A stretch of 61,660 bases of DNA, the filler included, from Basidiobolus ranarum (Eukaryota), in assembly GCA_040143965.1 (NCBI GenBank). It is 15 parts of 15 records of this genome, joined end to end, with 100 filler letters (N's around TTAATTAATTAA, not from the genome) between each part and the next. Parts side by side here need not be neighbours in the genome. Positions count along the whole stretch, not along the records: positions 24,746 to 28,764 come from JASJQH010002156.1; 14 more parts are not named here. One strand, written 5' to 3'. Shown here in pieces: positions 8,155 through 60,819 of the stretch. A model generated the notes under the pieces. It was not told the origin of the DNA, did not search any database, and saw nothing but the letters and a program-made list of their open reading frames with translations. The translations under genes and the position numbers were made by a program. Each line of letters begins with the position of its first letter. The stretch's first letter is position 1.

Positions 8155-8849
8155 NNNNNNNNNNNNNNNNNNNNNNNNNNNNNNNNNNNNNNNNNNNNTT
8201 AATTAATTAANNNNNNNNNNNNNNNNNNNNNNNNNNNNNNNNNNNNNNNNNNNNCCAGTGCTTATAGAAACCTTCTTGGAACCTTGGATTGTAGAATTTG
8301 AATGGTTATATAATGGGGTTCAGATGAGATCGGAAGAGCCCACAGCAGTCTATATCAAAAATTGATGCCCAACAAGAAAGTTACATTAATCTACTTCATT
8401 TAATGCTCAATATGAATCAAAACTCAATGTGGAACTTTTCAAGAACCTTGGTTGCAGAGCATGATGCCTAATTGCACCTCTAAATGCTCTATATTGTAAC
8501 CCAAAAGCAGTAAATGCACATTGCCTGGTTACTGTCAAGGATCTCAGGCCCAGAGACTGTTTGACACAGAAAGTTAAAAGTTAGTGAAATAAACCAATGA
8601 AACCTTTTTGCAAAAGCAAATTCTTCACCTCAAATCATTTATTTTGATCCGGAAAATCAAATCAGCTTTATTCAGCAAGTGTTTGATATAACTACATTTG
8701 TATCTGAGCTCACTTTCACCAGTTTTTTAGCCCCATCACATCAGAGGATCTAGAAGATGATCTAGTAGGAGAAATAAGCCGTGGATTTGGTGGAAAACTT
8801 CTAATAAAGATGCTTATGCTTATCAAACATTCTTGTCAAGCCACAAGCT

Positions 8850-10100
8850 CTAGCCCAAGCATAGGAGTTTCATGAAGCAAAAGTTTGGAAAACAATGTCT
8901 GATGAGTTTTCTTCACTTGCAGAGAGTAACATGCTACCATCATGGAGAAAGTCAAAAGGTTGCAAAAGGTTCTACAAAGTCAAAAACAATGCTGATATCA
9001 CCATCAAAAGGTACCTGGTAAGATTGGTTGCCTGTTGTTGTTCCCACACTCCAGGAGTTGATTTCAATCAAGTGCACTTAATCAGATGGAAATCAGCTAA
9101 TGAAACCTATTTCAGATGACTATCACAGTTAAACTAAGCTATATTTTTGGAATCCAAATCAAAAGTGATAAACCCAACAAGAAAATCATATTGTATCAGT
9201 CAAGATTTGTGCCAGACATTTTAAGACACTGCACCATGAATAATAGCAAGTCTGTATCAATATTGATAGATCCCAATGTGAAATTAGGCAAAACTGAATC
9301 TAATATGATCCACTATAACTCAAACCAAATCAGGAGTTCCACTGTTGGTCCATGTTGGGTAGTTCAATATATACAATGATTGGATAATATGACAATATTG
9401 CAGTGGGAGTGGGAATTTTCAATTAAAACCTCCAAAATCTAGGATCTGAGCCTAAAAATGCAGTTAAACATATACTCAGGGAATAGAGAGGGACTCTAGA
9501 ACTAGTACTGGGGTACTCTGGATACACTATGGACAGATTTTAAAGGCTTTGGTGATGCACACTAAGGACAAAACCTTCACAATGTAAGAACAACATCAGG
9601 ATACACTTTGCTCTGCAGTGATGAAGTTATAACTTGGAATAGCAAGAAGAAGCCAGCCTTAGGACTTTCCACTATAAAAGCAGAGTATAGGGCTGCCTCT
9701 GCTACTACAGAAGAAGCTAGGTGGCTCAGACTATTTTCCATGCTTATGGAGCCATACTTTTGAGTAGCATCAAGCAAGCAAGCAAACATAGCTCTTTTGA
9801 CTACAAAAGCAGAGTATAGGGCTGCCTTTGCTCCTACAGAAGAAGCTATGTGACTAATCAACTTCTTAACAGACTCAGGATACATGTAAAAATGTGTTAT
9901 TACTATATTTTGACATAATCAAAGTTGTATTTCATAAGCTACAAACCATAAATTACAAGCAAGATCAAAACATGTGGATACAAGGCATTTGTGTTAGAGA
10001 AGCAAGACATAATGAAACAATTGCACTTGCTAAATGCCATACAGAAGAAATGATTGCTGACAACTTAGCCAAACCTTTAGATAAAGCACAATTTGAATAA
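8850..10100 (+). mobile_element. Degenerate Ty1/copia pol (RT-RNase H) remnant
   Basis: Broken frames retain YKVRLVA..TPGVDF, IFGIQIK, WNSKKK..LST..AEY, KHVDTRHLCVRE and TEEMIADNLAKPL. Many stops and frameshifts. Confidence 0.85.
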
Positions 10101-10153
10101 TTATGAAATAAGCTTTGTTTGAGAGATATACAAAATAATTAGTTAGGTGGGAA

Positions 10154-10535
10154 AGTTGAAGTTAGGTAAATACAAATTCATTATTTAGTAGTAAGTTCAT
10201 TCATATTGTGTTTATTAAGCACCCAATTCTTTCATTCAAAAACATGTGTTTATTGATCTTATTGATAGAAAAATATGTGTTCATTGCTCCAATTGATAGA
10301 TATATCAATTAGATCACCTTTACCAATTATCTGTATTTTCTCAAACCTGAACAAATCATCTCAAATTTTGATCTATGCTTCACAAGCATATTTGTTACCA
10401 TGTATACTGTTGCAATAGTTTACTTTTGTAGTAACCTACCAGTAGGACAAATTTAATTCAACAAATCTCAAGTGTGAAATTCATAAATCTGAATTTTGTC
10501 CCAAACACTTCCAAATCCTCATAACACATTAGTCA
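10154..10535 (+). repeat. Copia LTR (~380 bp) preceded by a PPT and followed by a PBS
   Basis: Purine tract AGGTGGGAA, then (A)GTTGAAGTTAGGTAAAT...AGTCA. Alignable by eye to the LTRs at 36238-36589 and 11350-11700 (reverse). Confidence 0.8.
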
Positions 10536-10547
10536 GGTAATGAGCCC
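10536..10547 (+). promoter_or_regulatory. Primer-binding site, tRNAiMet anticodon-arm (half-tRNA) type, one mismatch
   Basis: GGTAATGAGCCC versus GGTTATGAGCCC, the complement of GGGCTCATAACC in the initiator tRNA anticodon arm. Confidence 0.75.
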
Positions 10548-10559
10548 TTTGCTAGCAGT

Positions 10560-11130
10560 CCATGGGTTGTTAACCAGTGTTATTACTAATTTTTTTTATC
10601 TACAGAGAAATTTGATCTTGATGTTTTCAAATTTAGAAGTTCAAGATGCAAATGGTGCTTCAAGGCAAGGATCTTAGTGGAATTGTTACAGGACAAGAAA
10701 TGGGATTAAAGAGAGCATCAGAAGCTTTCCTTGCCTTCCACAAGAAGCAGAGGAATACACTCACTACTCATTATATACATTACGGAGAATATCAACAGCG
10801 GCACATACACTCAGTCAAAAATGTTAAGAAAGCTTGGAAAACACTTGAGGGATTATATCAGACTACTAGCCAAGCAAATAGGATATTTCTTAAGCATAGA
10901 CTATACTCAATTCAGATGAATCAAGTCAAATACATGGCTAATGATACAAACTAAGTCAAAGCTATGGCAGATCTGCTCTCATCTATTGGAGCACCTGTAA
11001 ATGAAGATTACACAGTCACATTACTACTTTAGAGCCTGCCAGTCAAGTTCAAGAGCCTCATAATTTCATAGATGAAAGATCCAAGCTAGTAATAGTGCAA
11101 CATATTAGTGCTAGAGTTTGAATAAAGAAT
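10560..11130 (+). pseudogene. Degenerate copia gag (UBN2-like)
   Basis: FKMQMVLQGKDL..KKAWKTLEGLYQTTSQANRIFLKHRLYSIQM is homologous to the gag at 36621. It contains stops and frameshifts. Confidence 0.8.
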
Positions 11131-11349
11131 TCAGGAAATCCTGTTCTCAGCGGAACAATGCATGTTCAGGGACTAAATATCAAGTTATATACAGCAGACA
11201 CTATTATAGATCTGAGCAACTATGTATTAGCTACCTGGCTCAAGATTCAAAACTGATACAACCTAGAAGTCAACAAACTACATTTTCAGCATGCAGACCT
11301 GACCAAAGTTTATAATATAAATGGCTAATCATGGCATAAAAGATCAGGC

Positions 11350-12170
11350 TGATCAAAGTGTTCCATGATGTAGAAAGTGCTTTGGACAAGATTTAGACTT
11401 GTGAATTAGACACTTAAGTTGAATGAATTGAATATGTCCTATTTAAAGCTTACTGTGAAATAGTACTATTGGATGTGCTTAGAGCATAACATACATGCCT
11501 GTAAAGCATGGGTTAAAATCAGAGGTGATTTCCTAAGGTTTTGAGAAATAAGTGAGAATTTGTAAAAGTGATCCAATTTGTATTTCTAGTAATTAGAGCA
11601 ATACACACACATTTTTGAATGGCAGAACTGAGTGCTAAATAATCCCCTTATAAATTAACTAACTACTAAGTAATGTGATGCTATTTACTCAATTCTAACA
11701 TTCCCACTCAACTAACTATTATTAAGTTCTTTTAAACCTATATTATATCTTGAAAATTCAAGTTGTGCATTAGATCAAGATTGGGTTAAGATATCAGCAA
11801 TCATTTCTTCATCAGGCCAATTAAAAAGTTCAATTGTATAATTCTCTCTTGCTTCTCTAACAAAATGATGCATAATATCTATATGTTTTGCTTTAACATG
11901 AAATATAGGGGTTTTTTGCTAATGAAACACATCTTTGATTATTTTCAAATACTATAATAGCACGTTTTTCCTGTATCCTAAGGCTGTATTTAGCATTCTT
12001 AATTGCATAGTATTTTAGGTAGTAAAAGAGGCAGCCATATACTCTGCATTTATAGTGGAGAGTGCTATGGTTGGTTGCTTCCTACTATTCCAAGTTATGG
12101 CTCCATTACCATAGAGAAAAGTGTGCCCAGTTGCTGATTTTCTATTATCAAGGTTTCTTCCCCCATCTGG
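11350..12170 (-). mobile_element. 3' end of a second copia copy in inverted orientation (RNase H remnant, PPT, 3' LTR 11350-11700)
   Basis: The minus strand reads RKSATGHTF..ITWNSRKQPTIALSTINAEY..KAKHIDIMHHFVRE..EEMIADI. Then PPT AGTTGAGTGGGAA and LTR TGTTAGAATTG...TTTGATCA. Confidence 0.82.
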
Positions 12171-12380
12171 GGCAACAATGCGGTTAACTTACCTCATTAT
12201 ACTATTATTTTAAAATAAATTTATTATCTCTCATTATTATAAAAATAGGACTCTTTAGAATTTCTAAAATATATTTAGGANNNNNNNNNNNNNNNNNNNN
12301 NNNNNNNNNNNNNNNNNNNNNNNNTTAATTAATTAANNNNNNNNNNNNNNNNNNNNNNNNNNNNNNNNNNNNNNNNNNNN

Positions 12381-24745: not shown

Positions 24746-24856
24746 CACTATCATAAATGTGGGTGCATTGTGTTTAGGGTTAGTTAAAAGTACAGAAATA
24801 TTTTGCAAGCAAGGGGCGCTCCAAATACTGTGATGACTTGTAGCAAAATTTTGCAT
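24746..24856 (+). repeat. 111-bp terminal direct repeat, copy 1 (contig start)
   Basis: CACTATCATAAATGTGGG...CAAAATTTTGCAT is identical to 28654-28764. Confidence 0.97.
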
Positions 24857-25040
24857 AACCTGGTACGTTATTCGGATGGTTAGCAAGCTACATATTATAA
24901 TACCTAGGTATTGAACTTGACCATTAGGTCCATTCGCAGATTCTCTTTCCATTGCACTATTCACTATATCAACAATCATTTCAAAAAAAGAATCTTATCC
25001 AATATAGTGGAGCAATAAAAAAGGGTGTTCAAAAAGTAAT

Positions 25041-25122
25041 CGACACCTGCAGGATTCGAACCTGCGCTCCCATAGGGAAATGCCTTAGCAGGGCACCGCG
25101 TTAACCACTCCGCCAAAGTGTC
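25041..25122 (-). tRNA. tRNA-Ser(GCT)
   Basis: GACACTTTGGCGGAGTGGTT..GTGCC-CTGCTAA-GGCAT, long variable arm, GGTTCGAATCC..GGTGTCG. 82 nt, T5 terminator downstream. Confidence 0.95.
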
Positions 25123-25644
25123 ATTAGCTATGAATTTAGTTTGGTAAAGATATCTTATTGCCTTTTGATTATAGACTTATAGGCTTAGATCTACGACCAC
25201 TTGTGGAAGCTCCGAGGAAAATATAGATTCATACTAAAATCGCTATTTAGGCTTTAATGCTCAATTTTTAAGTCGCTATTTGAGCTTGCTGGGTAAAAAT
25301 CCTTTATAAATTGCTGCGCTTTCGATTTACAAGTCCTCAAATTTGAATGTCGTCATTTTCTCTTTTCTGTCTGTCTTACTGGGTGATATTTGGTTGCCAG
25401 CCGAAAAATATGGTTTGGAAATTTGGTATGTGCGTAAGCAGCACAATAAATGTTGCTTATACCATAGCCTTAGTGTTTAATACTTGACTATAGTTCAATC
25501 TGGAACGCTTCCTGCCACCACCACACTGGGAGTAATATAAAGGAGATGGAATAACATATTGAAATATATCTCGATAGATTGCCCAGCTTTTGATGTATAC
25601 TAATTAGAGGTATTCATATTCACTGTTTTACTATAAAAACATGA

Positions 25645-25717
25645 GCCCGGATAGCTCAGTCGGTAGAGCATGAGACTTTTAATCTTAGGGTCGGGGGTTC
25701 GAGCCCCCCTTTGGGCG
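25645..25717 (+). tRNA. tRNA-Lys(TTT)
   Basis: GCCCGGATAGCTCAGTCGGTAGAGCA-TGAGA-CTTTTAA-TCTTA..GGTTCGAGCCCC..TTGGGCG. T6 downstream. Confidence 0.95.
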
Positions 25718-26046
25718 ATAATTTTTTCTATTTTATTATATTCATTTTGGTGTCTCTAAATGTTACGATGAGGCATGGTTGGTCAAAACTTCTATCTTGC
25801 CAGAACAAACACTTATGAATATCTATCTACTCTGCCACCGGTATACAGTGAAATTTGTATTTTAGCAGTCCGCTCTCTCTGAACGCCTTTAGTGTATACA
25901 TACGTACGTGTGTGTATATCAGTTTGCTGCGATTATATTAGCAAGAAAAGGGGCTGATCGTTACTGCTCAATCTGACTATAAGTATGACATAGCCCATTA
26001 GTTAAAATTAATACAAAATTACTCCTGGATTGTTATATATGAACGC

Positions 26047-26117
26047 GCGCTAGTAGTATAGCGGTAGAATAACTGCCTTCCAAGCAGTTGGCCTGGGTTC
26101 GACTCCCAGCTAGCGCA
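26047..26117 (+). tRNA. tRNA-Gly(TCC)
   Basis: GCGCTAG/CTAGCGC acceptor, ACTGC-CTTCCAA-GCAGT anticodon arm, CTGGG-TTCGACT-CCCAG T arm. Long T tract downstream. Confidence 0.95.
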
Positions 26118-26525
26118 CACTTGTTTTCTTTTTTTTTTTGATTAGGCAAAACAGATGGCTCCTATATATTTAGGATTGGTCTGGATCTTAGCTTATTGAG
26201 TAAACTATTTTACCCATATACCGGCAAGGTCATCCCTGGCCAGCATGCTATAAAAATCCTAACGATGGATAGAACCAAGTACATGTTTAACGGCTAGAGA
26301 AATGGTTCCAGGAAAGTCTACAAGTACATCACAGAATTGAGATACTTTCTTTCTGGTGGTTTAAGTAGCTCGAGTACATAAACACGAGCACAAATGATAC
26401 GCTTAATAGAAGGATAGCATTTTACTCACATAGTTTTTCTCGCTCATTTTATATTGTATGGATACACTGTTTATTACGTATTATCATAACGAGGCTTTTA
26501 CTATTGATTCTAACGATTGCAAGAA

Positions 26526-26597
26526 GGCTTTGTGGTGTAATGGTTAGTACTCAGGGCTTTGAATCCTGTAATCCAAGTTCGATTCTCGGTGAGATCT
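26526..26597 (+). tRNA. tRNA-Gln(TTG), structurally weak (possible pseudogene)
   Basis: GGCTTTGTGGTGTAATGGTTAG..CAGGG-CTTTGAA-TCCTG..CCAAG-TTCGATT-CTCGG-TGAGATCT. C-A mismatch and several G-T pairs in the acceptor stem, A-C mismatch in the T stem. Confidence 0.75.
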
Positions 26598-26839
26598 TTC
26601 GTTTTGCAAGTATCAAACTCTTCTTTTGCTTTTATTGTTCTTTATGTTCTGCTTTTGACGATTTATACATAGTTGATAAGAAAGCTTCGGTTTCAGAGCT
26701 ATTTTGAATAACTCGCATCATTTTTCCAGAATTTGAGCACATTATTTGTGAACAAAAGACATTATGATCCTTCCGAGACCCATACTCAACAGAAAGTAAT
26801 ACGTTCATTATTTAAAACATACACCAGACCTATATATCT

Positions 26840-26911
26840 TCTCGGATAGTATAGTGGTGAGTATCCCCGCCTGTCACGCGGGAGACCTGGGTTCAATTCC
26901 CAGTCCGAGAG
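26840..26911 (+). tRNA. tRNA-Asp(GTC)
   Basis: TCTCGGA/TCCGAGA acceptor, CCCGC-CTGTCAC-GCGGG anticodon arm, CTGGG-TTCAATT-CCCAG T arm. Confidence 0.95.
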
Positions 26912-27104
26912 CTTTTAGTTTTATTTTTATGACCAAAAAAGAGTATTTTTCGAAAGTGTTGGAGCATTTGTAACCATTTAATCTAGTTTTAATCCAATTT
27001 AGTAGATCAAATAAAAATGAGGATATGTGATTTTGGAGAGATCTATCAAAAGCTTACTAAAGATCGAAAGTGATCTCAACTTTAAAGTTACTACTCTTAA
27101 ATCA

Positions 27105-27176
27105 GGCTCTATGGTCTAGTAGTATGATTCTCGCTTTGGGTGCGAGAGGTCGCGGGTTCAATTCCCGCTGGAGCCC
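27105..27176 (+). tRNA. tRNA-Pro(TGG)
   Basis: GGCTCTA/TGGAGCC acceptor, CTCGC-TTTGGGT-GCGAG anticodon arm, GCGGG-TTCAATT-CCCGC T arm. The D loop has AG in place of the usual GG. Confidence 0.9.
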
Positions 27177-27429
27177 GATTTCCTTTTTCCTTTTGACAGT
27201 TGACTCTTTTCTCAAAGCATAACTTGTATCCTAGTGTTTGTTTGTCATTACATGTTAGTAGAGGCCATTGAGTATTGGTGTGAAATCGGATTTTCATATT
27301 TTGTGGCATTTACAATTATAGCCCTCACCAATATAGAGTTCGATGCTTTAGTTATTAACCATTAGTGCGTATACCACAATGCCGTAGACAAAAGATTCAA
27401 ATGGTGATATATTTGTCACTAACCTAGAA

Positions 27430-27502
27430 GCTTCCTTAGCGCAGTTGGCAGCGCGTTAGTCTCATAATCTGAAGGTCGCCAGTTCGATCCTGGCAGGGAG
27501 CA
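27430..27502 (+). tRNA. tRNA-Met(CAT), elongator type
   Basis: GCTTCCT/AGGGAGC acceptor (G1, not A1), anticodon loop CTCATAA, and a normal TTCGATC T loop rather than the initiator ATCG. Confidence 0.93.
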
Positions 27503-27855
27503 ATCTTTTATATATTGCTGATTTTTTGTATGGCTTGGTGTAATTCTTTCTCTGGTTCAGTGAAAGATTCACGAAGAATCTTCAAAACTCTTTTATCTCT
27601 AGTCATGTTTAAGAGATACACTGAACTGGTTTCTTGGCTATTCCAGTGATGGTTTTGCCACAAATGGAGCACTCGATCTCTTTATTTACCTAAGATCGAA
27701 ATTCATTGTAAACGTGTTTGGTTAGTAGTGACAAATAGACAAGCCTGGCGGGTACGTAGTATTGCATCCAAAGCTTCTGCAACAAGACAGTAAAGAAACA
27801 AGAAAACAGAGATGGTTTAATCTTTATTGCGTAACCATTAATATCATTTATAATT

Positions 27856-27929
27856 GCCCCCGTGGCCTAATTGGATAAGGCATCAGACTTCTAATCTGAG
27901 GATTGTGGGTTCGAGTCCCACCGGGGGTG
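27856..27929 (+). tRNA. tRNA-Arg(TCT)
   Basis: GCCCCCG/CGGGGGT acceptor, TCAGA-CTTCTAA-TCTGA anticodon arm, GTGGG-TTCGAGT-CCCAC T arm. Intronless. Confidence 0.95.
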
Positions 27930-28311
27930 TATTTTCCCTTTTTAGTTACAAAACCATCGTTAGGATGCATACCTACATATGTGAGCTCTGTTTATTGTTT
28001 CCTATATTTAGAGCAAGTTTGAGCCTTATTTGCCATGATTTAAAGGTAGAAGCACTTTTGCTGCATTCATTGGATCATGATTTATGGGACATTTGCTTTA
28101 GTTTATCATGTGGGTTAATCACCTTGGAACAAAATGACTCTATATTCTAACCACCTTTATATTTATCTGATATGACAACAATTTAACTGTGGTATATAAA
28201 TGTAGAATCGCATGCTTTCAACTCCCATCACTTCCTAACCACGGAACATCGTCTAAATGTAGGTAAGTCGTTTTTCTTGGATACAAAGAAAAGAATACAT
28301 GCAAAGAAATG

Positions 28312-28383
28312 TTCCCCATCGGGGAATCGAACCCCGGCCGTCTCGGTGAAAGCGAGAAATCCTAACCACTGGACCAATGAGGA
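28312..28383 (-). tRNA. tRNA-Glu(TTC)
   Basis: TCCTCAT/ATGGGGA acceptor, TCTCG-CTTTCAC-CGAGA anticodon arm, CGGGG-TTCGATT-CCCCG T arm. Confidence 0.95.
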
Positions 28384-28653
28384 ATCTTATACCTGTCTTC
28401 CTTGTGGTAGCTATATATAATGTTTTCTTGTATTTAGTGTTCTGCGGAGCATGGTTTGCCTCTCCTTTGGATAATCCATAATGAAAAGTACAGTTTCTCC
28501 GCGCTCTTGATACTAGTGACTTAATCATACTCTGGTAGCTCACACACTTCTCATCGTTACTATGCCTTTATAGCATTGTAACCATGTATCAGTGTATCAA
28601 TCATAAGCGGCAAATACGGTGTCTGGTATGGATTCCATTGATCCTTTTTGGTG

Positions 28654-28764
28654 CACTATCATAAATGTGGGTGCATTGTGTTTAGGGTTAGTTAAAAGTA
28701 CAGAAATATTTTGCAAGCAAGGGGCGCTCCAAATACTGTGATGACTTGTAGCAAAATTTTGCAT
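28654..28764 (+). repeat. 111-bp terminal direct repeat, copy 2 (contig end)
   Basis: Exact match to 24746-24856, giving a period of 3908 bp. Confidence 0.97.
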
Positions 28765-32983: not shown

Positions 32984-35900
32984 AGTCAATAAATGACCTG
33001 CCACAAGTAGATGTATCATTGCTGGAACAAAATACTCTATGGCTGAAATCATAATTCTGCTTATCTTGATCTATCTTACTAAGAAGTTTGTCTTGCAATT
33101 ATTTAAGTCCTCTGTTCTGGCTTGTTTTTTTTTCTTTTTTGCCAGCAGGCTTTTACTTGGAAGCCAATTTGGATATAGATTTTGAATGTTTTTCAATGGC
33201 ATTGAAATAATCAGATGGTAAGCTTGGTATTTTGAGATCTTGTAGAAACCACTGATGATAAGCTGCAATTGCCATTCATGACCAGAGATGTCTGGCAAAT
33301 TTGTTGATGACTCATCTATGACATTGTCTCAAAATCCGCTCATTTTGTTGATAGGGTGTACCAAAATACTACTCTTACATAGGAGGTGTTCTTTTTTTCT
33401 AAAATAACTTTCTCATGCTGCAACACAAATGTTTAAAGAAGCCCTGCTATTATTGTCACAAATTCTTGTGCTTTGAAAGGCAGAGGCTTCATAGAACAAA
33501 ATATTATAAGCTTGGTCACTATACAAAGCAACCAGCTACATAAAGCCTGGTCTATATCAATGGTAATTAGTGCGAAAAATGACTTTAGTTTTGCCCCCTG
33601 AGTCTGCTAGCTGTGCTTTATCTTGAAGTTTGGGTAACATGGCTGAAAGTTGACATAACATGGAGTTGCCATAGTTGTAGACCAGAATACTGGAGGTAGA
33701 AATACAACTTTGGTTGAACCAGCAAGTCCAGAATACTTTACAGACATACTGCTAGATGTTGACCTTGTGTATTCCAATATTGAAGGTAGTATATCAGAAG
33801 ATGATGAAGAAGATGACTGTTTTGTCATGGACTCTTTGTTATTGGCAAGTATTAGTCCAATCATAACACTTACAATAAAGGAAGCAACTTGGATTTTTGA
33901 GGAGTGGTGAGTTCAATCCAATCTTAGTAACTAGGTGTTTATTGGGTTTGTTATACTTTTATCACCATTGATGGGCACCTGATGCTTGCCACAGACCTGG
34001 CACATGTAGAAAACACTTGTCAATTGTATTACTTGTAATGCTTCAGTAATGTTAATATTTCCATGTTGAAATGGTTTTTGGCATTCACCGGTGATCTGAT
34101 AAACTGAAGTCACTGTTTGCACACAATTGGCAACACTAAAACTGGTAAATGTTGTTCACATTTGGCACACATACTGTTGATTCCATGTTTTAAAGTTTTG
34201 ATGTAATCACTCAAATATAGATCAATGATCCATTACCAAAGTGCTCACCACAAACCCAATGGTGTTACAAATATACTTGATGGATATCAGTACTAGAATC
34301 TCAAAAGTCAAAGTTTCTTTGATAACACAGAGGATCATGCACTTGCATTGGCTCTGGATGGTTTCCCACTAAACAAATATACTGTCATAGAGGCTTCTGA
34401 CCAATAATTCTGATTAACTGAAATTGTCCTCCTTCTGAGTGATATAACAGTCAAAATATTTTGATACTATCCATCATATCTGGGCCTAAATCACCAGTGC
34501 TTAAAGAGTACCTCTTGAAGCCTAAGATTGCTGAATTTTAATAGCTATCCAATGGGATTCAGATGGAGGAATATTTTTTACAGCTAATATCATTGTATAT
34601 ATTGGTGATGCTCCTGCCATCAGTCAACTTTGAGGTGTTTGTGTGCAAAATTCACCATCTTGCTGTATATCTTGTGAAATCAACAGAGTTTGCTCTAGCA
34701 GGCATAAAATTTCCTACTTTCCAAATAGAATACTAAGCCTTATAATTTAATGGTCAAGAGCCCAGTCCAATTTTAACACTTGCACTGATATCAATTCACC
34801 ACGTAGTGAGTTCAATGTCAAACTTGGGATCTGGGTAAGCCTTAGATTTTATTTTTAGAGGGGATCAGCTGGAGCCAGGGCTTCCCATTAGGCACTATGC
34901 ACTGGCTTTTCAATAACATTCCAATATTACTTGCTTGGCTATTTAGCAGGAAATTCAATCTGAATTAACCATACAAGATAGGATCAACTTTCGAATCAAT
35001 TGAGAAAATATATGAAAACCTCAAGATATCATCATATTTTGCTAGAACTCCAATCAATATCCACTTATCTAGGGGTTTATTTAAAAGCACAGACTGCAAG
35101 TATTGGTTTTATATATATTTAAGCAGATACTTTTGAAGATATCTGCATGAGAATTATTAACCTCATTGGGAGTTGTTTGTGGATATTGTTAATATATTCT
35201 CATGGCATCAACTCCCATTGACAGATTGCAGGACCCTAGCAAAAATAAAATGATTTAATCTGGATTGGATCTACCCTTCTGGATTGCAAAACCACTCAAG
35301 AACCATCAAAATATTGGTGGCTTGCATTCTGCCAGGGATTTTGCTGTTAACATGGTAGCTTCTTGATGGTATCTTAATGGTATTCATATATGGTAAAATG
35401 GTGATCCTGATATTTGGCATGCATTCTCTAATTTTTGATAAATTTTGCTACAAACTAATTTTTGAATGGCGAATTACATGGTTTACTGCTATAGGAATTC
35501 AAATCAATATGAATGCCTTAACTTAGATATTTTTTGCTTTGTATTTAAGCCATAATGAGAATCAAAAAATTAACAATCTTGTTGTGTTTAGTCTCTACAT
35601 ATGCACAAACTTGAGCGATCAGATGTAACTCAAAAACATCAATATGCTTTACCAGGAAACTAATGGTGGGAAAATTACTAATCATCTGAATTTTAGAAAA
35701 GCACTGCCACCTAGAAAATAGCTACCTCTTGTTACCATTCACAATGAGAATACGCTCTTGGATTTTGGTAAATTTCTGTAACAAATTCAGTCAATATATC
35801 CCCAAGTTGCAGTCTACCAATGTCTTGCCACAAGTAGATATGTCATTGCTTCAATAGATTACCCCATGGCTAAAAAAATATTACTGCATATCTTGATCTA

Positions 35901-36237
35901 TCTCACCGACGAGTCTGTCTAGTAGCTTTCCTAGAAATATCATAAGATTATCACATATAAAATTAGTCCAAATTATAGAGGTACTTACTCTGTGTCCATG
36001 GATTGGGTTTTGTTGCTGTTATTGAGCTCAAACAATGCAAAAACCCATGAGCATATTGAAAAGAGCCTTTTGTTGGGAGGCTAATGCATTCTGGAGTTTC
36101 CTTCACCCATTGCATTACATCTATCACCGATTTTGCTGATACATTGTTTATCAGATTAGCATGCAGTTATGCTAGCAATTTTATACAGAGTATCATTTCA
36201 CTGCAAGTGTGCTCCATAGGGAACTCCCAGAAAGTAC
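32984..36237. mobile_element. Scrambled, degenerate CACTA/EnSpm-like (Tnp2-type transposase) remnants
   Basis: Plus strand, about 34330-34690: HALALALDGFPL..WPIILIN..PP..ISGPKSP..IGDAPAI..CC..C. Minus strand near 36230: FWEFPMEH.C. Homologous blocks recur in 41215-43800. Boundaries are approximate. Confidence 0.65.
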
Positions 36238-36589
36238 TGTTGAAATTAGGTAAATAGCAACACATTATTTAGTGTTTAGTTTATTCATACTCTGATTATT
36301 TAGTACTCAATTCTGTCATTCAAAAATGTGTGCTTATTGCTCTAATTGATAGAAATATCAATTAGATCACTTATACCAATATTCACTATTTTCTCAAAAC
36401 ATCTCCAAATCACCTCAAATTTTCACCCATGTTTACCAGGCATGTTTTTTATGATCTAAACATGTCCAATAGTCCTATTTCATAGTAAACTATAAATAGG
36501 ACATATTCAATTCAATAAAACTTAAGTGTCTGATTCACAAATCTAAATCTTGTCTAAAACACTTCCAAATCCCCTAAACACTTTTATCA
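36238..36589 (+). repeat. Copia 5' LTR (352 bp)
   Basis: TGTTGAAATTAGG...TTTTATCA (TG..CA), directly followed by a PBS and gag. Homologous to 10154-10535 and 11350-11700. Confidence 0.88.
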
Positions 36590-36601
36590 GGTTATGAGCC
36601 C
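36590..36601 (+). promoter_or_regulatory. Primer-binding site complementary to the tRNAiMet anticodon arm
   Basis: GGTTATGAGCCC directly after the LTR. Confidence 0.85.
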
Positions 36602-36620
36602 CAAGCTAGCTGTTAAATGA

Positions 36621-36999
36621 ATGTCTACCAGTTCTATTACCAACATCTTTGCATCCACAGAGAAGTTTGATGGTGAAGGCTTCCATCTTTGGAACTTCAA
36701 GATACAAATGGTGGTAGAAGACAAGGACCTTTGGGGATTTGTTACAGAAGTAGAAATTGAGCCAAAGGGACCACCAGAAGCCATCCTTGTCTTTCACAAG
36801 AAGCATAGGAAAGCACTCTCTACACTTTGTCCACATCTTGGAGACTCTCAATTGAGGCACATACAATCAGCCAAAAACATCCAAAAAACTTGGGAAACAC
36901 TTGAGGGACTATATGAGACTAAAAGTCTGGCTAATAGGCTATATCTTAGGCGAAAATTGTTCTCAATTCAGATGAATCCTGATGATTCTATGCTTAATC
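36621..36999 (+). mobile_element. Ty1/copia gag N-terminus, open frame to the contig end
   Basis: EKFDGEGFHLWNFKIQMVVEDKDLWGFV..KALSTL..TWETLEGLYE..LANRLYLRRKLFSIQM (DUF4219/UBN2-type). Confidence 0.9.
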
Positions 37000-41214: not shown

Positions 41215-43800
41215 TATAAATTGCTTATTGTTACACATTCAGTAATTTGTAAGTTGCAAACTAGGGGATGAACTTGCTTTGTCAGTTACCCAAAATCATA
41301 ATTTGGCAATACTAAATTGGGTAACTTGGTATGGGCTGGCCCAATATCTCCAAAAAAATCATCATGCCTGATTGTGGTGGGATAGTGCAATATTGTTCCT
41401 TATAGCATCCAATGGAGTGTTATAGGACCCAGCCATGGTAATTGACAGATCAAGCCAGATGGTGTACTAGCAGGCTGGATTGAGTGGCAAAATCTGACCT
41501 GGTCTAATGGAACAAGTCTATTGATCTTATCTCAAATGGCCCATTCATATTGAGTTTTCAACTATAGAGCTGAGTAAGTAGTATGTGAATTTTTTTGAAT
41601 AGTAAGTTCCTAGTACCTGATGGGAAGCTCTGGCTCCAGCTGATCCCCTTTTGCAATATAATTCTAAGCTTATGGCTAATACCAAGTTTGATGTTAGACT
41701 GACTTTTGGTGAATTTGTATCAGTGATCATGTTGAAATCTGACTGGGCTCTTCATGGTAAAATCATGGAGCTTAGTTTTGTATTTGTATAGTAGTAATGC
41801 ATATGCCTGATAGGGTAAACTACATTGATTTGACAAAATCTGCAGCACAAGAGTGCATTCCCTAACAAAAATAAAATTGATTTAATCCGGATTGGATCAT
41901 CACTGATTTTGCTGATACTTTGTTAATCAGATTAGCATATGGTAATACTGACAATATAACATAGAGCGTCATTTCACCACAGGTGCGCTCCATTGGGAAC
42001 TCCCAGAATGTATAGCAAGGTCCTATAATCTCTAAGCATTGTTAAAGATCCAGCAGGGAATGTATTGAAAACTGGCATAGATTCAATCTATCTTCTTTAA
42101 ACCAGTAATAAAGTTTTTCATATCCAATTGCAAAATCTTTGCACAGTGTATCCGCCTGAGATCTGCCAAGGTGAGTAGATGCTGTAAGAATATATCAACA
42201 ATGTTGACAAACAAATATGGCAAAATCATGGAGGTTAGTTTTGTATTTGGACAGTAGTAATGTGTATGCCTGATTGATTAGACACCATTGATTGGACAAA
42301 ATCTACAGCAAGATAGTGCATTGTGCTTGCAAAAACCTGCAAGTTCACTGATGGCAGGAGTGTCACCAATACATAGAACAATATTTGCTTCAATAAAATA
42401 TCAACCCATTGGAACCGCATTAGATAACTGTTCAAATTCAGCAATCAAAGGCTCCAAGAAGCTATCTATAAGCACTGGCAATATAGGTCCAGATATGATG
42501 GATAGTATCAAAAAATATGACTCTTATATCACTCAGAAGGAGGAACAATTATGTTAATTAAAGTTACTGGCCAGCAAGCCTTTCAACTGCATATTTGTTT
42601 AGCAAGAAACCATCCAGAGGCAATGCAAATGCCTGATCATATGTGTTCTCAAAGTAACCTTGACTTTTCAGATTCTGGTTGTGATATCCATCAGGTATAT
42701 TGGTAATACCATCAGCATTATGGTGAGTACTTTAGTATTGGATCAATGATCCATATTTGGGTGATTTCATTGGAACTATAAGATGGAGAATCAATAGTAT
42801 GAAAGCCAAATATGAATGATATTTACCTGATTTGGTGATTGCCAATTGTGTGCAAACAGTACATGACTTCAGATTTTTCTGATCACCAGTGAATGCCAAA
42901 CAGCCATTTGGACATGAAGGTAGTTTAATTACTGATGGATTATGTGTTGTACAATTGACAAGTGTTTTCTACCTGTACCAGGTCTGTGGCAAGCAACAGT
43001 TGCCAATCAACTGTGGTAAAAGTGTAAGAAAACCAATAAACACCTGGTTGCTAAGACTGGATTGAACTCTCAACTCCTCAATAATCAAAGCTGCTTCCTT
43101 TAGAGTAAGTGTTATGAGTGGACTAATGTTTGCCAATAACAAAAAGTCCATAACAAAACTGTCATCTTCTTCTCCAACTTCTGATAAACTACCATTGGTA
43201 CTGGAATAACCAAGGTCTGGAATATGTTTATTCAACACGTGGCACCTCTCAACAAGCCAAAATGCCAGGAAATAAAACTGGCAGCTTTCCAACCTCATCA
43301 GATAACTTCAAAGTGTTGAATTTAGACCCAAACCTGAAGGCAAACAAAAAGCCCCACAAACACCAAAAAGCACTCTCAGTAGCATCACACTACAAGGACA
43401 TATAAAATAGTCACAGTGCTTGAGCAGTATTTTCAAAAGTATGAAGGGAAAAATGGAGTACAAATATGCAGAAAGTGGCTTCAGAAGAAGAACTTTCAAC
43501 TTGACATTCAGTCTGGTGTTGACCATGAAGTTATCTGGGAAGAAATTAATACAAAGTGGCACAACATTGCAGGGTATTTGCCAGATAGCTAGAAGAATGT
43601 TGATTCAGCAATGTTAATACAATGGTGGGCTTTGCTGGAGATATTGATACAAACTTGTGTTGGATTTGAGCTAAACTTTGGGTATGAAGAACTCTATAAA
43701 AATATTTGGGAGAATATATCAAAGAAACTAGAGATTTCAAAGGTGACAAATTAGCATTCAAGTGGTAACTGTGTAAAATTTGAGTTATGTTTTTGCACAA
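41215..43800 (-). mobile_element. Degenerate CACTA/EnSpm-like transposon remnants (same family as 32984-36237)
   Basis: The minus strand gives DQAFALPLDGF and YTFWEFPMERTCG..PYANL. About 42600-43230 is an inverted homologue of about 33770-34370 (EEDD.FVMD.LLLA.ISP.ITLT.KEA in both). Confidence 0.65.
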
Positions 43801-44092
43801 GTGTTGATCCAGAGTTCTCTGGATTGTAGTCAATTGTGAGTAGCTATTTTGCAAGATCTTTAAATCTTACTCCTGAAACTTCAAAAATTAATTAAAATGA
43901 AATCTAACTTGATGGTTTTATGATGGTAAGTAAACAATCATTCCAAATAGATTAAAATTGCGATGGTTTTTCTGCAATAACAATTCTCAAATTTCTTTTA
44001 GGGGCTCAATCTGCATTTCTTGGTGGGTAATAATAGCTAAGATTTTTCTGATTCAGGTAAGCTTGGCAACCAGAGAAAATGTTTCATCACAG

Positions 44093-44340
44093 TCAATGCC
44101 AAATTTCCAAGCATAGCCTAACTACTAATCTTGCTTTATACAGGTCAATCAATCCATCTGAGTCAAGTTTCAGTTTCAGCACCCATCTATTACCAATAGT
44201 TTTTCTTCCAGTAGGTAATTCCTCAAGTATGCATTGGATATTCTTGATTAGGGAGTGAATTTCATCATTAGTTGCTTTTCTCCATTCTGTCGCTTCATCA
44301 GATATCAGAGCTTTTGTCAAATTTTCTGGTTCCAAAAATG
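44093..44340 (-). mobile_element. Ty1/copia reverse transcriptase N-terminal fragment
   Basis: EPENLTKAL..EWRKATNDEIHSL..LPTGRKTIGNRWVLKLK..DG..YKARLV. Confidence 0.85.
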
Positions 44341-45327
44341 CTATATGTGTAAATATATTCTACCCTTTTTCTGAATTGAATCCGTTGATTTCATACTCTG
44401 ATATGGGACATCCAGAGTCTTTGGTGGAATGGTCAGATGTTTCACTTACAAGATGTTTCCGATTTCTATTTGGCAGGATTTCTGAGACCAGATTTCCTGA
44501 ATTTTTTGTACAATTAAATACTTGTTCTTTTGATTGTATGCTTGCAATGATTATTTGCTTCCAATGTCCACTATATTGAGAGTAGGATATTTCTTAAGTA
44601 CATGATTGGTAAGAAAATTATGGCCTTGTTTCTGTGCCCAACCTCCTGATTCTTGAGTGACTGCAAAAATATCTGTTTCATGATTATTATATTTTTCATA
44701 GGCAGAGATAACATGCTGATTTGCAGAAGCTTGTTACAAATTATCAATATCCTCAGAATAATTATCAGATTCTCTGGTATCATGTGATGCATTTCCAGTT
44801 TTGTCAAATGTTTCACTACTCTTATGGCTGCTTGATTCCACAATATCATATAATAGTTTGTCTTCTTGGTTTCAGTACTTGCAGTGAGTCTTGGGATAGG
44901 TTTATTGCTTGTTGGTTTTTTGCTAGGAATATTCATCACAGTAATTGATAATTATTTGAGCTTTGTTATAAATTCATTGATTGCTGATGTTTTAGACCAT
45001 GTCCCAGATGTGATATTTTCTAAATTTGGATAATGTTAATAGATAGTTTCAGATTCAAAATTTGGCCTAATTCCAGTATCTATTTGCAATAATCATTTTC
45101 CAAGTTCTTTTAAGTACTTGTTAGCTCAAGATAGGTTTCAGAACTCATTAATTCAGAATATGAGCATCTGAGAAACTGATTTTCAGCCAAGATCAAATTC
45201 CCTTGATTAGAAGATCTGAGATCTTTTNNNNNNNNNNNNNNNNNNNNNNNNNNNNNNNNNNNNNNNNNNNNTTAATTAATTAANNNNNNNNNNNNNNNNN
45301 NNNNNNNNNNNNNNNNNNNNNNNNNNN

Positions 45328-58021: not shown

Positions 58022-59545
58022 ATGTCTGGAGATCAGCTTGCAAATCTTAACGATACTAAGTTAACTGGGTGGCATTTACGTGCTATCATTGTTGCTGGTA
58101 TCGGTTTCTTTACTGATGCCTACGACATTTTCATCATTAATCTGGCTGTTCCTATGATGGGCTACGTTTATTATGCTGAGAACAATAATAAGGTTCCTAA
58201 ACAGTTCGAGGGTCCATTGAAAGGTGCTACAGCTTTTGGTACATTGATCGGACAACTACTCTTTGGATATCTTAGTGACAAACTCGGACGCAAGAAGATG
58301 TACGGTTCTGAGCTGATCATCATTATTTTTGCTACATTCTGTTGTGCTATTGCTGGGTCCTGGGGTAAAGGAGTGAACGTCATTGCTGTTCTTGCTCTTT
58401 GGCGATTTATTCTTGGAATTGGTATTGGCGGTGACTATCCGGTTAGTGCCGTCATTACTTCGGAATTTGCATCCACAAAACGTCGTGGTATGATGATTTC
58501 CGCAGTGTTTGCTTCCCAGGGTATTGGAATTCTTGTTGCCGCTTTGTTCACCGTGATGATCCTGGCTTGTTTCCAAACTCTCATTCGTGAAGATCAAGCC
58601 AACTTGGACTATGTATGGAGATTGATGCTTGGATTCGGATGTGTCCCTGCCATCTTCACCGTATGGTTCCGTTTAAATATGCCTGAATCCCCTCGTTATA
58701 CCATGGAAGTTAAGGGTAATTCTGAGCAAGCTGCCAAGGATCTTGAAGCAGTATTGGGAGAACAGGATAAGAGTACACAAATGAATGATTTCTCTCAGAA
58801 TGAGAAATTAGGACAAGTTGTACCAGTTTTTGCTAACAACGAAGACACCTTCACTCAGCACTTCGGCAAGTGGAAGAACCTAAAGGTATTGCTTGGTACC
58901 TCCCTGTCCTGGTTCTTCTTGGACATTGCCTTCTACGGTCTTTCCCTCAATCAGTCATATGTCTTGCAAGCCATTGGGTACTCCTCCAAAGGATTATCAG
59001 CATATGATGCCATGTGGACAGAAGCAATTGGTAACATGATCATCTCATTAATGGGAACCGTACCTGGGTACTGGTTTACTGTATTCCTCATTGAGCGTAT
59101 GGGTCGTATCAAGATCCAGTTGATGGGTTTCATGATGCTTACCATCATCTTTGTCATTCTATCTGCTGGCTTCAACAAGATCCGCGACACAGCATTGGCT
59201 CTTTTCATCGCTCTCTTCACTCTCGCGCAATTCTTCTTCAACTTTGGTCCTAACACCACCACCTTTGTACTTCCCTCGGAAGTGTTCCCGACTCGGTTCC
59301 GTTCTACCGCTCATGGTATCTCTGCTGCCTCTGGTAAGCTTGGTGCCATTATTGCCACTTTCGGTTTCAATCAATTAGTAGAGATCGGTGGTGCCGATGG
59401 TGAACACGCCTTCCTCCCACAGACATTAGGTATCTTTGCCGGTATCATGTTCCTCGGCTTCTTGACCACCTTCTGGATCCCGGAGACAAAGGGTAAATCT
59501 TTGGAAGAGATCTGTGATGAGATCGAGAACTCTGACAAGAAATAG
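58022..59545 (+). CDS. PHO84: High-affinity phosphate:H+ symporter (MFS)
   Basis: AGIGFFTDAYDIF, DKLGRK, GIGIGGDYP.SA.ITSE, PESPRY, WFFLDIAFYG, NFGPNTTTF..P.E.FPTR.RSTAHGISAASGK and PETKG motifs. Intronless, 507 aa. Confidence 0.96.
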   Translation: MSGDQLANLNDTKLTGWHLRAIIVAGIGFFTDAYDIFIINLAVPMMGYVYYAENNNKVPKQFEGPLKGATAFGTLIGQLLFGYLSDKLGRKKMYGSELIIIIFATFCCAIAGSWGKGVNVIAVLALWRFILGIGIGGDYPVSAVITSEFASTKRRGMMISAVFASQGIGILVAALFTVMILACFQTLIREDQANLDYVWRLMLGFGCVPAIFTVWFRLNMPESPRYTMEVKGNSEQAAKDLEAVLGEQDKSTQMNDFSQNEKLGQVVPVFANNEDTFTQHFGKWKNLKVLLGTSLSWFFLDIAFYGLSLNQSYVLQAIGYSSKGLSAYDAMWTEAIGNMIISLMGTVPGYWFTVFLIERMGRIKIQLMGFMMLTIIFVILSAGFNKIRDTALALFIALFTLAQFFFNFGPNTTTFVLPSEVFPTRFRSTAHGISAASGKLGAIIATFGFNQLVEIGGADGEHAFLPQTLGIFAGIMFLGFLTTFWIPETKGKSLEEICDEIENSDKK

Positions 59546-60762: not shown

Positions 60763-60819
60763 GTGGTAGCGCGTCAGTCTCGTAAACTGAGGTCGCCAGT
60801 TCAATCCCGGCAGCAGGCA
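60763..60819 (+). pseudogene. 5'-truncated tRNA-Thr(CGT)-like sequence
   Basis: GTGGTAGCGCG-TCAGT-CTCGTAA-ACTGA-GGTC-GCCAG-TTCAATC-CCGGC-AGCAGGCA. The anticodon arm is perfect and a B box is present, but there is no adjacent 5' acceptor strand. Confidence 0.65.

What the first reader, a model, noticed from the sequence alone, without database searches (positions are those of the whole stretch)
24746..28764. A 3.9-kb self-overlapping unit made only of nine different tRNA genes: probable tandem (or circular) tRNA array in a fungus
Seen: the contig begins and ends with the same 111 bp (period 3908 bp). It contains nine different intronless tRNA genes: Ser-GCT, Lys-TTT, Gly-TCC, Gln-TTG, Asp-GTC, Pro-TGG, Met-CAT, Arg-TCT and Glu-TTC. 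They are separated by about 190-520 bp of unique AT-rich spacer, each has an oligo-T stretch downstream, and there is no credible protein gene. On circularisation the two minus-strand genes (Glu, Ser) become neighbours across the junction, giving one minus block and one seven-gene plus block. Known: assemblers emit such end-overlapping contigs for collapsed tandem repeats or circles. tRNA genes are dispersed in model fungi, while multi-isotype tandem arrays are best known from Entamoeba and some animals. Inference: this is the repeat unit of an rDNA-like tRNA array or an extrachromosomal circle. I know of no description of one in early-diverging fungi.
Basis: partly seen in the sequence, partly recalled or inferred. 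Interest (0 to 1): 0.85.

Follow-up and report, generated by a model that had tools for sequence, protein, structure and literature searches.

The report
Self-overlapping nine-tRNA-gene contig in Basidiobolus
A 3.9-kb piece of a Basidiobolus fungal genome assembly carries only nine different tRNA genes and closes on itself, which most likely marks one unit of a head-to-tail tRNA gene array of a kind not yet reported in fungi, although its copy number could not be measured here.

Summary
The window is 15 separate ~4-kb contigs joined by N spacers. Only contig 24746-28764 begins and ends with the same exact 111 bp (period 3908). It holds nine different tRNA genes (2.3 per kb) and no credible ORF; the other 56 kb hold none. 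All nine lack an encoded CCA and have a T-run downstream. Seven of nine have a full B box. Eight of nine fold canonically; Gln-TTG is degenerate. A neighbouring contig places the assembly in Basidiobolus (99% identity to a B. ranarum protein).

The best reading is one collapsed unit of a head-to-tail nuclear Pol III tRNA array (0.6). Rivals are a one-copy cluster flanked by a 111-bp direct repeat (0.22), a 3.9-kb circle (0.1) and foreign DNA (0.04). Nothing here separates them: no genome, reads or relatives were available, and six collection scans or searches plus one protein search found no counterpart.

The closest known cases are the Xenopus 3.18-kb/8-gene repeat, Entamoeba arrays and the human 1q23.3 tRNA repeat. 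Seven literature searches found no fungal case.

One extra observation: all five mcm5U-class wobble-U tRNAs sit in the unit (post hoc P about 1e-4 to 2e-3).

Interest is moderate: a new member of a known kind, with copy number unproven.

The parts
24746..28764 (.). Whole self-overlapping contig (4019 bp). One period is 3908 bp (24746-28653), of which 661 nt (17%) is tRNA gene and the rest is AT-rich spacer (34% GC).
24746..24856 (.). First copy of the exact 111-bp terminal repeat.
   Evidence: 100% identity, spacing 3908
28654..28764 (.). Second copy of the exact 111-bp terminal repeat. The contig ends here, so identity beyond it cannot be seen.
25041..25122 (-). tRNA-Ser (GCT), long variable arm, canonical cloverleaf, T5 at +6.
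   Evidence: (61.3 bits)
25645..25717 (+). tRNA-Lys (TTT), T6 at +5, TATAW at -13.
   Evidence: (67.2 bits)
26047..26117 (+). tRNA-Gly (TCC), T4 at +7 followed by T10, TATAW at -13.
   Evidence: (65.4 bits)
26526..26597 (+). tRNA-Gln (TTG), degenerate. The acceptor stem has one C.A mismatch and several G.U pairs, the T stem has an A.C mismatch, and GC is 43%. Possibly a pseudogene or a weak gene. T4 at +5.
   Evidence: (39.2 bits against 58-70 for the others)
26840..26911 (+). tRNA-Asp (GTC), T4 at +2, TATAW at -9.
   Evidence: (63 bits)
27105..27176 (+). tRNA-Pro (TGG), T5 at +8.
   Evidence: (58.4 bits)
27430..27502 (+). tRNA-Met (CAT). It has a G1-C72 pair and a TTCGATC T loop, which I read as elongator type by recalled criteria. 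T4 at +4, TATAW at -22.
   Evidence: (61.1 bits)
27856..27929 (+). tRNA-Arg (TCT), T4 at +3, TATAW at -7.
   Evidence: (70 bits)
28312..28383 (-). tRNA-Glu (TTC), first T4 only at +20, TATAW at -36 and -8. On the closed unit it lies 565 bp from Ser(-) across the junction.
   Evidence: (61.1 bits)

Best explanation
The contig is one collapsed repeat unit (3908 bp) of a head-to-tail tandem array of nuclear tRNA genes in a Basidiobolus genome.

Each of the nine genes is its own RNA polymerase III transcription unit. Each has internal A/B-box promoter elements (a full B-box consensus in seven of nine), usually a TATA-like element just upstream, and its own oligo-T terminator. No mRNA or protein is involved.

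A short-read de Bruijn assembler folds all near-identical units onto one cycle and prints it once, with the two ends overlapping. I infer that such an array would arise and stay uniform by unequal crossing-over and gene conversion, as with rDNA or 5S arrays, and that it multiplies the gene dose of these nine isoacceptors together.

Shown: the gene content, the Pol III signals and the self-overlap. Inferred: that more than one copy exists, that the copies are chromosomal and tandem, and that they are expressed.
For: (1) Exact 111-bp identity of the two contig ends, period 3908. This is seen in 1 of the 15 contigs of the window.
(2) Nine different tRNA genes in 3.9 kb (2.3 per kb), against 0 in the other 56,241 bases.
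(3) The two rare properties fall on the same contig. That is what a tDNA repeat predicts, and it matches known tDNA repeats. Those are the Xenopus 3.18-kb unit with 8 tRNA genes (title only, in the reference list of PMC1635290), Entamoeba units (PMC2652664 passages) and the human 7.3-kb unit with 5 tRNA genes in 9-43 copies (PMC4041453 passages).
(4) The genes look like live eukaryotic Pol III units:
- 8 of 9 have canonical cloverleaves.
- None encodes CCA.
- T4 or longer lies downstream of 9 of 9, P = 4.6e-6.
- The B-box consensus occurs 7 times in the window, all inside these genes, against 0.41 expected.
- TATAW lies in -45..-1 of 6 of 9 genes against 2.33 expected, P = 0.011.
(5) There is no protein gene and no other Rfam family in the spacers.
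(6) Spacer k-mer composition is close to that of the other contigs: r = 0.93 for 3-mers and 0.89 for 4-mers, against 0.95-0.98 and 0.89-0.95.
(7) Recalled, not tested: SPAdes prints closed cycles with an overlap of k bases, and 111 is a k value that some wrappers choose for 150-bp reads.
Against: No depth, read pairs or long reads could be examined, so a copy number above 1 is not shown.

The assembler and its k are unknown. With k below 111, a single copy flanked by an exact 111-bp direct repeat gives the same contig shape.

No second, diverged copy of any spacer exists in the other 14 contigs.

No related array was found elsewhere:
- two metagenome scans;
- one viral-contig scan;
- one prokaryote-genome scan;
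- plasmid and phage blastn, which gave only single-tRNA-sized matches covering 2% of the query.
These collections hold few or no fungal genomes, so the blanks say little.

One of the nine genes (Gln) is degenerate. That fits a drifting or silenced array, but equally an ordinary decaying cluster.

The set is not simply the decoders of the commonest codons. In 2392 codons from six ORFs, AAA, CAA, GAA and GAT lead their families, but CGT exceeds AGA, GGT exceeds GGA, CCT exceeds CCA, and TCT far exceeds AGY.
Confidence: 0.6

Rival explanations
1. A one-copy (or 1.03-copy) tRNA gene cluster flanked by an exact 111-bp direct repeat. The assembler, working with k below 111, could walk from the unique middle into the repeat on both sides and stopped there. 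It printed repeat-cluster-repeat, and there is no array.
For: A de Bruijn graph cannot tell this topology from a tandem repeat (inference). The contig ends exactly at the repeat on both sides. No evidence of high copy is available. The degenerate Gln gene fits an ordinary decaying cluster.
Against: This needs two independent rarities on one contig. The first is a cluster of nine different tRNA genes without any other gene (2.3 per kb against 0 in 56 kb). The second is a perfect 111-bp direct repeat 3.9 kb apart in non-coding DNA. The 111 bp match nothing else in the window and show no transposon-end features. 111 is odd, and I recall it as a k value in use.
Confidence: 0.22
2. An extrachromosomal 3.9-kb circular DNA that carries only tRNA genes. 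It is either a stable episome or circles excised from a chromosomal array by recombination between units.
For: A closed cycle with a k-sized overlap is also how assemblers print true circles (recalled). 1 of the 15 contigs shows it. Circles commonly arise from tandem repeats (general knowledge), so this can coexist with the array reading.
Against: There is no replication or partition gene and no ORF above 98 aa. No similarity to any plasmid or phage record extends beyond single tRNA genes. I know of no stable tRNA-only episome in eukaryotes (recalled), and the literature listings showed none. An origin cannot be recognised from the sequence.
Confidence: 0.1
3. The contig does not belong to the fungus. 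It would come from a contaminating eukaryote with array-type tRNA genes (such as an amoeba), or from a virus or bacterial element.
For: The window is a chain of unlinked contigs. Only the contig at 57656-61660 was tied to Basidiobolus, by 99% protein identity. The spacers have the lowest 3-mer correlation of the 15 contigs (0.932).
Against: Spacer GC (34%) and k-mer profile lie at the edge of, not outside, the range of the other contigs. The genes lack encoded CCA and carry Pol III terminators, so they are not bacterial or phage type. There are no matches in viral, prokaryote, plasmid or phage collections beyond single tRNAs. No short tandem repeats of the E. histolytica kind are present. A tRNA-Met-like relic 86% identical over 51 nt sits on the Basidiobolus-assigned contig.
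Confidence: 0.04

Closest known systems
Xenopus laevis 3.18-kb tandem tDNA repeat with 8 tRNA genes (Muller, Clarkson and Galas 1987; seen only as a title in the reference list of PMC1635290, plus that review's sentence on Xenopus repeat clusters encoding several isoacceptors)
   Same: The unit size (3.2 against 3.9 kb) and gene number (8 against 9) are nearly the same. Several different isoacceptors share one unit, each gene is a separate Pol III unit, and the unit has no protein gene.
   Different: It is an animal, not a fungus. Tandem repetition there is proven experimentally, here it is only inferred. The original paper is not held, so gene content and copy number could not be compared.
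Entamoeba tRNA gene arrays (PMC2652664 abstract and passages; bioRxiv 10.64898/2026.07.06.736064 abstract)
   Same: Tandem units are made only of tRNA genes (some also carry 5S), with mixed isoacceptors and both orientations in AT-rich spacers. This is a microbial eukaryote.
   Different: Entamoeba has 25 unit types with at most 5 tRNA genes each. [quoted passage not shown] E. histolytica and E. dispar spacers carry complex short tandem repeats; here there are nine genes per unit and only three trivial tandem repeats (2.1-2.4 copies of 7-9 bp) in the spacers. Whether other units exist in this genome is unknown.
Human 1q23.3 tRNA variable-number tandem repeat (PMC4041453 abstract and passages)
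   Same: It is a multi-isotype unit with five tRNA genes on both strands. tRNAs are its only transcripts, and the tRNA genes make up a small share of the unit.
   Different: The unit is 7.3 kb and GC-rich, has a CTCF site and transposon fragments, and is present in 9-43 copies measured by PFGE. Here the unit is AT-rich, has no recognisable extra element, and its copy number is unmeasured.
Schizosaccharomyces pombe centromeric tRNA gene clusters (one sentence in review PMC1635290 and the title of Kuhn et al. 1991 in its reference list)
   Same: These are the fungal precedent for many tRNA genes packed into repeated chromosomal DNA, where they act as heterochromatin barriers.
   Different: They are embedded in large centromeric repeats with other sequence, not in a 3.9-kb unit made of tRNA genes alone. 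No centromere context can be seen here.
Arabidopsis chromosome 1 Ser-Tyr-Tyr array (PMC2886086 abstract and PMC7544208 abstract, both from search listings)
   Same: A head-to-tail repeat of a small multi-tRNA unit (27 triplet units). By title and abstract start, clustered tDNAs there are epigenetically silenced, which is one possible fate for this array too.
   Different: It has three genes of two isotypes per unit, made by local duplication. Here there are nine different isotypes with no duplicate.

Membership tests
Eukaryotic nuclear tRNA gene (Pol III type 2 transcription unit) | Cloverleaf that matches the tRNA covariance model | tested here: met
   9 of 9 lie above the Rfam gathering score of 29 (39-70 bits). 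8 of 9 have canonical ARAGORN cloverleaves and Gln-TTG has stem mismatches.
Eukaryotic nuclear tRNA gene (Pol III type 2 transcription unit) | Internal B box (consensus GGTTCRANNCC, recalled) | tested here: met
   There are 7 exact matches in the 61,660-base window, all inside the array's tRNA genes, against 0.41 expected. Gln and Met differ from the consensus at one position.
Eukaryotic nuclear tRNA gene (Pol III type 2 transcription unit) | 3' CCA not encoded; oligo-T terminator just downstream | tested here: met
   0 of 9 genes have CCA after the discriminator base. T4 or longer lies within 30 nt of 9 of 9 genes and within 8 nt of 8 of 9, P = 4.6e-6.
Eukaryotic nuclear tRNA gene (Pol III type 2 transcription unit) | Expression and aminoacylation | not testable with these tools
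Tandem tRNA gene array (Xenopus / Entamoeba / human 1q23.3 kind) | Unit made of tRNA genes and spacer only | tested here: met
   Nine tRNA genes are present, no ORF exceeds 98 aa, and no other Rfam family reaches its gathering score.
Tandem tRNA gene array (Xenopus / Entamoeba / human 1q23.3 kind) | Head-to-tail junction between successive units | tested here: inconclusive
   The exact 111-bp terminal overlap with period 3908 is compatible. The contig stops at the overlap, so sequence continuity past it is not seen.
Tandem tRNA gene array (Xenopus / Entamoeba / human 1q23.3 kind) | Many near-identical copies (depth well above single copy) | not testable with these tools
   No genome is held and no runs or reads are available.
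Tandem tRNA gene array (Xenopus / Entamoeba / human 1q23.3 kind) | Conservation of the unit in related species | tested here: inconclusive
   There were 0 hits in two metagenome scans, one viral scan and one prokaryote-genome scan. No fungal genome collection is on hand.
Extrachromosomal circular DNA / episome | Covalently closed circle without chromosomal flanks | not testable with these tools
   Only the self-overlap is seen. It does not separate a circle from an array.
Extrachromosomal circular DNA / episome | Own replication or maintenance function | tested here: not met
   There is no ORF above 98 aa. Nothing resembles plasmid or phage records apart from single tRNAs covering 2% of the query. 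A non-coding origin cannot be excluded.
Prokaryotic / phage tRNA array unit | At least 20 tRNA genes at 2 or more per kb (definition in the abstract start of PMC4758250, search listing); bacterial-type genes | tested here: not met
   Density is 2.3 per kb but there are only nine genes. The terminators and missing CCA are of eukaryotic type. Only single-tRNA-sized matches of about 77-82% identity were found in the plasmid and phage collections.

The most novel reading that the evidence does not exclude
Basidiobolus keeps a high-copy, Entamoeba-like array (or episome) whose unit is a deliberately balanced cassette of nine isoacceptors. The cassette includes the complete set of mcm5U/mcm5s2U-class wobble-uridine tRNAs (Lys-UUU, Gln-UUG, Glu-UUC, Arg-UCU, Gly-UCC), so the supply of Elongator/Trm9-dependent tRNAs would be amplified and regulated as one block. 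In addition or instead, the array could be a structural chromosome element, as at Entamoeba chromosome ends or S. pombe centromeres, in a fungus that I recall as having very many chromosomes. This would be the first rDNA-like tRNA array in the fungal kingdom, and the largest number of isotypes per unit among the comparators I could read.
Probability: 0.12. Interest if true: 0.8.

Novelty: new member of a known kind. Interest (0 to 1): 0.5.

Why it matters
If the array is real, fungi join Entamoeba, frogs, mammals and plants as lineages that have independently put mixed tRNA genes into homogeneous tandem repeats. Basidiobolus would then be a culturable system for three questions. Why do such arrays form: dosage, co-regulation of a modification class, or chromosome structure? 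How is Pol III transcription handled on repeated units? How does a defective member, here Gln-TTG, get carried along by concerted evolution?

There is also a practical point. Short-read fungal assemblies collapse such loci, so tRNA gene counts for these genomes would be underestimates.

If the locus turns out to be single-copy, it is still an unusually dense nine-isotype tRNA cluster for a fungus, but of modest interest.

Tried and rejected
1. Whole genome: none is held.
The decisive depth and junction test was therefore impossible.
A gapped Asp...Pro pattern with spacing 210-240 gave 0 hits. A 49-nt stretch of the Ser-GCT gene gave 0 hits.
5. Other collections. The Asp...Pro pattern in viral contigs gave 0 hits. 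The Ser stretch in GTDB genome contigs gave 0 hits.
6. blastn 'distant' of the whole contig against plasmids and phages. This gave 128 and 114 records, all single-tRNA-sized pieces covering 2% of the query, and none covering 80% or more. I rejected a prokaryotic mobile-element origin.
7. Junction-side ORF. I hoped gene callers had recorded it in another assembly. The protein search with window 24746-24979(-) found no candidate. The other spurious ORFs were not searched and not scanned against Pfam.
8. Hidden Pol III genes or tRNA relics in the spacers. The Rfam E-value mode showed only sub-threshold tRNA look-alikes lying on the tRNA genes themselves. No orphan B boxes were found.
9. Entamoeba-style short tandem repeats. 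Only three trivial rows with 2.1-2.4 copies were found.
10. 'The unit holds the decoders of the commonest codons'. Rejected as a full explanation, since it is true for Lys, Gln, Glu and Asp but not for Arg, Gly, Pro and Ser (six ORFs, 2392 codons, introns ignored).
11. The Xenopus 1987 paper is not held.
I replaced it with a script that splits the window at the N runs.

Full report
**What the window is.** The 61,660-base window is not one locus. It is a chain of 15 contigs of 4005-4028 bp, sorted by length and separated by N...TTAATTAATTAA...N spacers. The finding is the seventh contig, 24746-28764 (4019 bp). Everything below therefore rests on this contig, its 14 unlinked companions, public collections and the literature.

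**Checking the observation.** The first and last 111 bases of the contig are identical, 24746-24856 = 28654-28764, with spacing 3908. None of the other 14 contigs has a terminal overlap of 11 bp or more.

ARAGORN finds nine tRNA genes: Ser-GCT(-), Lys-TTT, Gly-TCC, Gln-TTG, Asp-GTC, Pro-TGG, Met-CAT, Arg-TCT (all +) and Glu-TTC(-). Rfam RF00005 finds the same nine loci. No tRNA gene lies in the other 56,241 bases, also when introns are allowed. Density is 2.3 genes per kb, and 661 of 3908 nt are tRNA.

Spacers are 193-522 bp inside the contig and 565 bp across the junction. The ten ORFs of 50 aa or more reach at most 98 aa, and six of them overlap tRNA genes. The Rfam E-value mode shows nothing else in the spacers. 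Tandem Repeats Finder gives only three trivial rows.

**Are the genes real, and of what type?** Eight of nine have canonical cloverleaves and score 58-70 bits. Gln-TTG scores 39 bits, with a C.A mismatch and several G.U pairs in the acceptor stem and an A.C mismatch in the T stem. It may be a pseudogene or a weak gene.
- No gene encodes CCA and none has an intron.
- A run of 4 or more T lies within 30 nt downstream of all nine genes, and within 8 nt for eight. A random 30-nt spacer window has one with probability 0.255, so all nine gives 4.6e-6.
- The B-box consensus (recalled) occurs seven times in the whole window, all inside these genes, against 0.41 expected.
- TATAW lies within 45 nt upstream of six of nine genes, against 2.33 expected (P = 0.011).
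- The Met gene has G1-C72 and a T-loop beginning TTCGA, which by recalled criteria marks an elongator, not an initiator.

These are eukaryotic nuclear Pol III transcription units, not organellar, bacterial or phage genes.

**Whose DNA?** ORFs on the companion contigs match chitin synthase, myosin head, BAR/PH, MFS sugar transporter, histidine phosphatase and CBM5/12 families; 6 of the 7 ORFs scanned had a match. The intronless ORF at 58022-59545 is 99% identical to a Basidiobolus ranarum protein, and the 11 best hits are all Basidiobolus.

The tRNA contig is not physically linked to these contigs. Its spacers have 34% GC and a 3-mer/4-mer profile correlating 0.93/0.89 with the pooled others, whose own range is 0.95-0.98/0.89-0.95. 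This is at the low edge but not foreign. A 5'-truncated tRNA-Met-like relic, 86% identical over 51 nt, lies on the Basidiobolus-assigned contig.

blastn against plasmid and phage records gives only single-tRNA-sized matches covering 2% of the query. I take the contig to be Basidiobolus nuclear DNA, with a small residual doubt (0.04).

**What the self-overlap means.** This step is inference. A contig with identical ends is what a de Bruijn assembler prints for a closed path: a true circle, or a tandem repeat whose units collapse. I recall that SPAdes prints such cycles with an overlap of k bases, and that 111 is a k value chosen by some wrappers for 150-bp reads. This was not checked.

The same shape also arises if k was smaller and one copy is flanked by an exact 111-bp direct repeat. 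The walk from the unique middle enters the repeat on both sides and stops at the branch. The graph topologies are identical and only depth or long reads separate them.

I weigh the readings as follows. The one-copy reading needs two unrelated rarities on the same 4-kb contig: nine different tRNA genes with nothing else, and a perfect 111-bp repeat 3.9 kb apart that matches nothing else in the window. In the array reading the two belong together, as in every known tDNA repeat. My estimates are tandem array 0.6, one-copy cluster 0.22, circle 0.1 (which may coexist with an array) and foreign DNA 0.04.

**The search for relatives gave nothing.**
- A gapped Asp...Pro pattern and a 49-nt Ser-GCT stretch found nothing in JGI metagenome contigs.
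- The Asp...Pro pattern found nothing in viral contigs.
- The Ser stretch found nothing in GTDB genomes.
- A protein search with the junction-side ORF, in case another assembly's gene caller had recorded it, found no candidate.

None of these collections is a fungal genome collection, so the blanks are weak evidence.

**What the set of isotypes says.** In 2392 codons from six Pfam-supported ORFs (introns ignored), AAA, CAA, GAA and GAT lead their families. But CGT exceeds AGA, GGT exceeds GGA, CCT exceeds CCA, and TCT far exceeds AGY. The unit is therefore not simply the set of most-demanded decoders.

Six of nine anticodons begin with U (P about 0.017 for 14 U34 species among 45). The unit also holds all five of Lys-UUU, Gln-UUG, Glu-UUC, Arg-UCU and Gly-UCC. 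These tRNAs carry wobble uridines of the mcm5U/mcm5s2U class made by Elongator and Trm9/ALKBH8 (passages of PMC5900570, plus recalled yeast data).

A random draw of 9 from 45 species contains all five with P = 1.0e-4. It contains at least 5 of a wider class of 7 with P = 1.8e-3. This was noticed after the fact, so it is a lead and not a result.

**Comparison with what is known.**
- The closest case in size and content is the Xenopus laevis 3.18-kb tandem repeat with 8 tRNA genes. I saw only its title in the reference list of PMC1635290, plus that review's sentence on Xenopus repeat clusters. The original paper is not held.
- Entamoeba has 25 unit types with up to 5 tRNA genes each, making up over 10% of the genome (PMC2652664 abstract and passages). 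[quoted passage not shown]
- Human 1q23.3 has a 7.3-kb unit with five tRNA genes in 9-43 copies (PMC4041453).
- Arabidopsis has a 27-unit Ser-Tyr-Tyr array (abstract in a listing).
- S. pombe packs tRNA genes into centromeric repeats (review sentence).
- A 2010 survey states that large tDNA clusters arose independently many times (PMC2888827 passages).

Seven searches of the paper library listed no tandem tRNA array in any fungus. The Basidiobolus genome paper mentions tRNA only in other contexts (PMC7466969 passages). Supplements were not seen, and subscription journals are largely absent from the library.

**Verdict.** The sequence facts are solid. The interpretation 'array or circle' is the best reading but is unproven. 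If confirmed, it is a new member of a known kind: the first such array in fungi, with nine isotypes per unit. Interest is 0.5. The bolder reading is a high-copy, functionally composed cassette for the mcm5U-class tRNAs, or a chromosome-structural repeat. I give it about 0.12, and it would merit about 0.8 if true.

Noticed in passing
window 25645-28383 (genes Lys-TTT, Gly-TCC, Gln-TTG, Arg-TCT, Glu-TTC): The unit contains all five tRNAs of the mcm5U/mcm5s2U wobble-uridine class (Elongator and Trm9/ALKBH8 dependent), and 6 of the 9 anticodons start with U. The post hoc chance is 1e-4 for all five and 1.8e-3 for 5 of a wider class of 7.
   Followed up: partly
window 26526-26597: The Gln-TTG gene is degenerate: 39 bits against 58-70 for the others, with a weak acceptor stem and a T-stem mismatch. 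It keeps a T4 terminator and most of its B box. It may be a defective member carried along in the unit.
   Followed up: partly
window 60764-60819: A 5'-truncated tRNA-Met-like relic lies on the contig that carries the Basidiobolus PHO84-like gene. It is 86% identical over 51 nt to the array's Met gene and has CGT in the anticodon position. ARAGORN and Rfam do not call it.
   Followed up: partly
window 8255-12280, 32984-36999, 41215-45227: These three contigs share long stretches of 73-85% identity in both orientations (up to 985 bp). This is probably a dispersed repeat or transposon family.
   Followed up: no
window 58022-59545: The PHO84-like phosphate transporter has many close paralogues or alleles in Basidiobolus records, at 99, 91, 91, 85, 83... 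% identity. This fits a duplicated or polyploid genome. The 99% hit sits on a 6098-bp contig, so the window is a different contig, allele or assembly.
   Followed up: no
window 24746-28764, upstream of the tRNA genes: TATA-like elements (TATAW) lie within 45 nt upstream of 6 of the 9 genes, against 2.33 expected (P = 0.011), mostly at -7 to -22. This suggests upstream promoter elements, which I recall being used by Pol III genes in fission yeast and plants.
   Followed up: partly
whole window: The window is an artificial chain of 15 length-sorted contigs. Neighbourhood in the window therefore carries no genomic meaning.
   Followed up: yes
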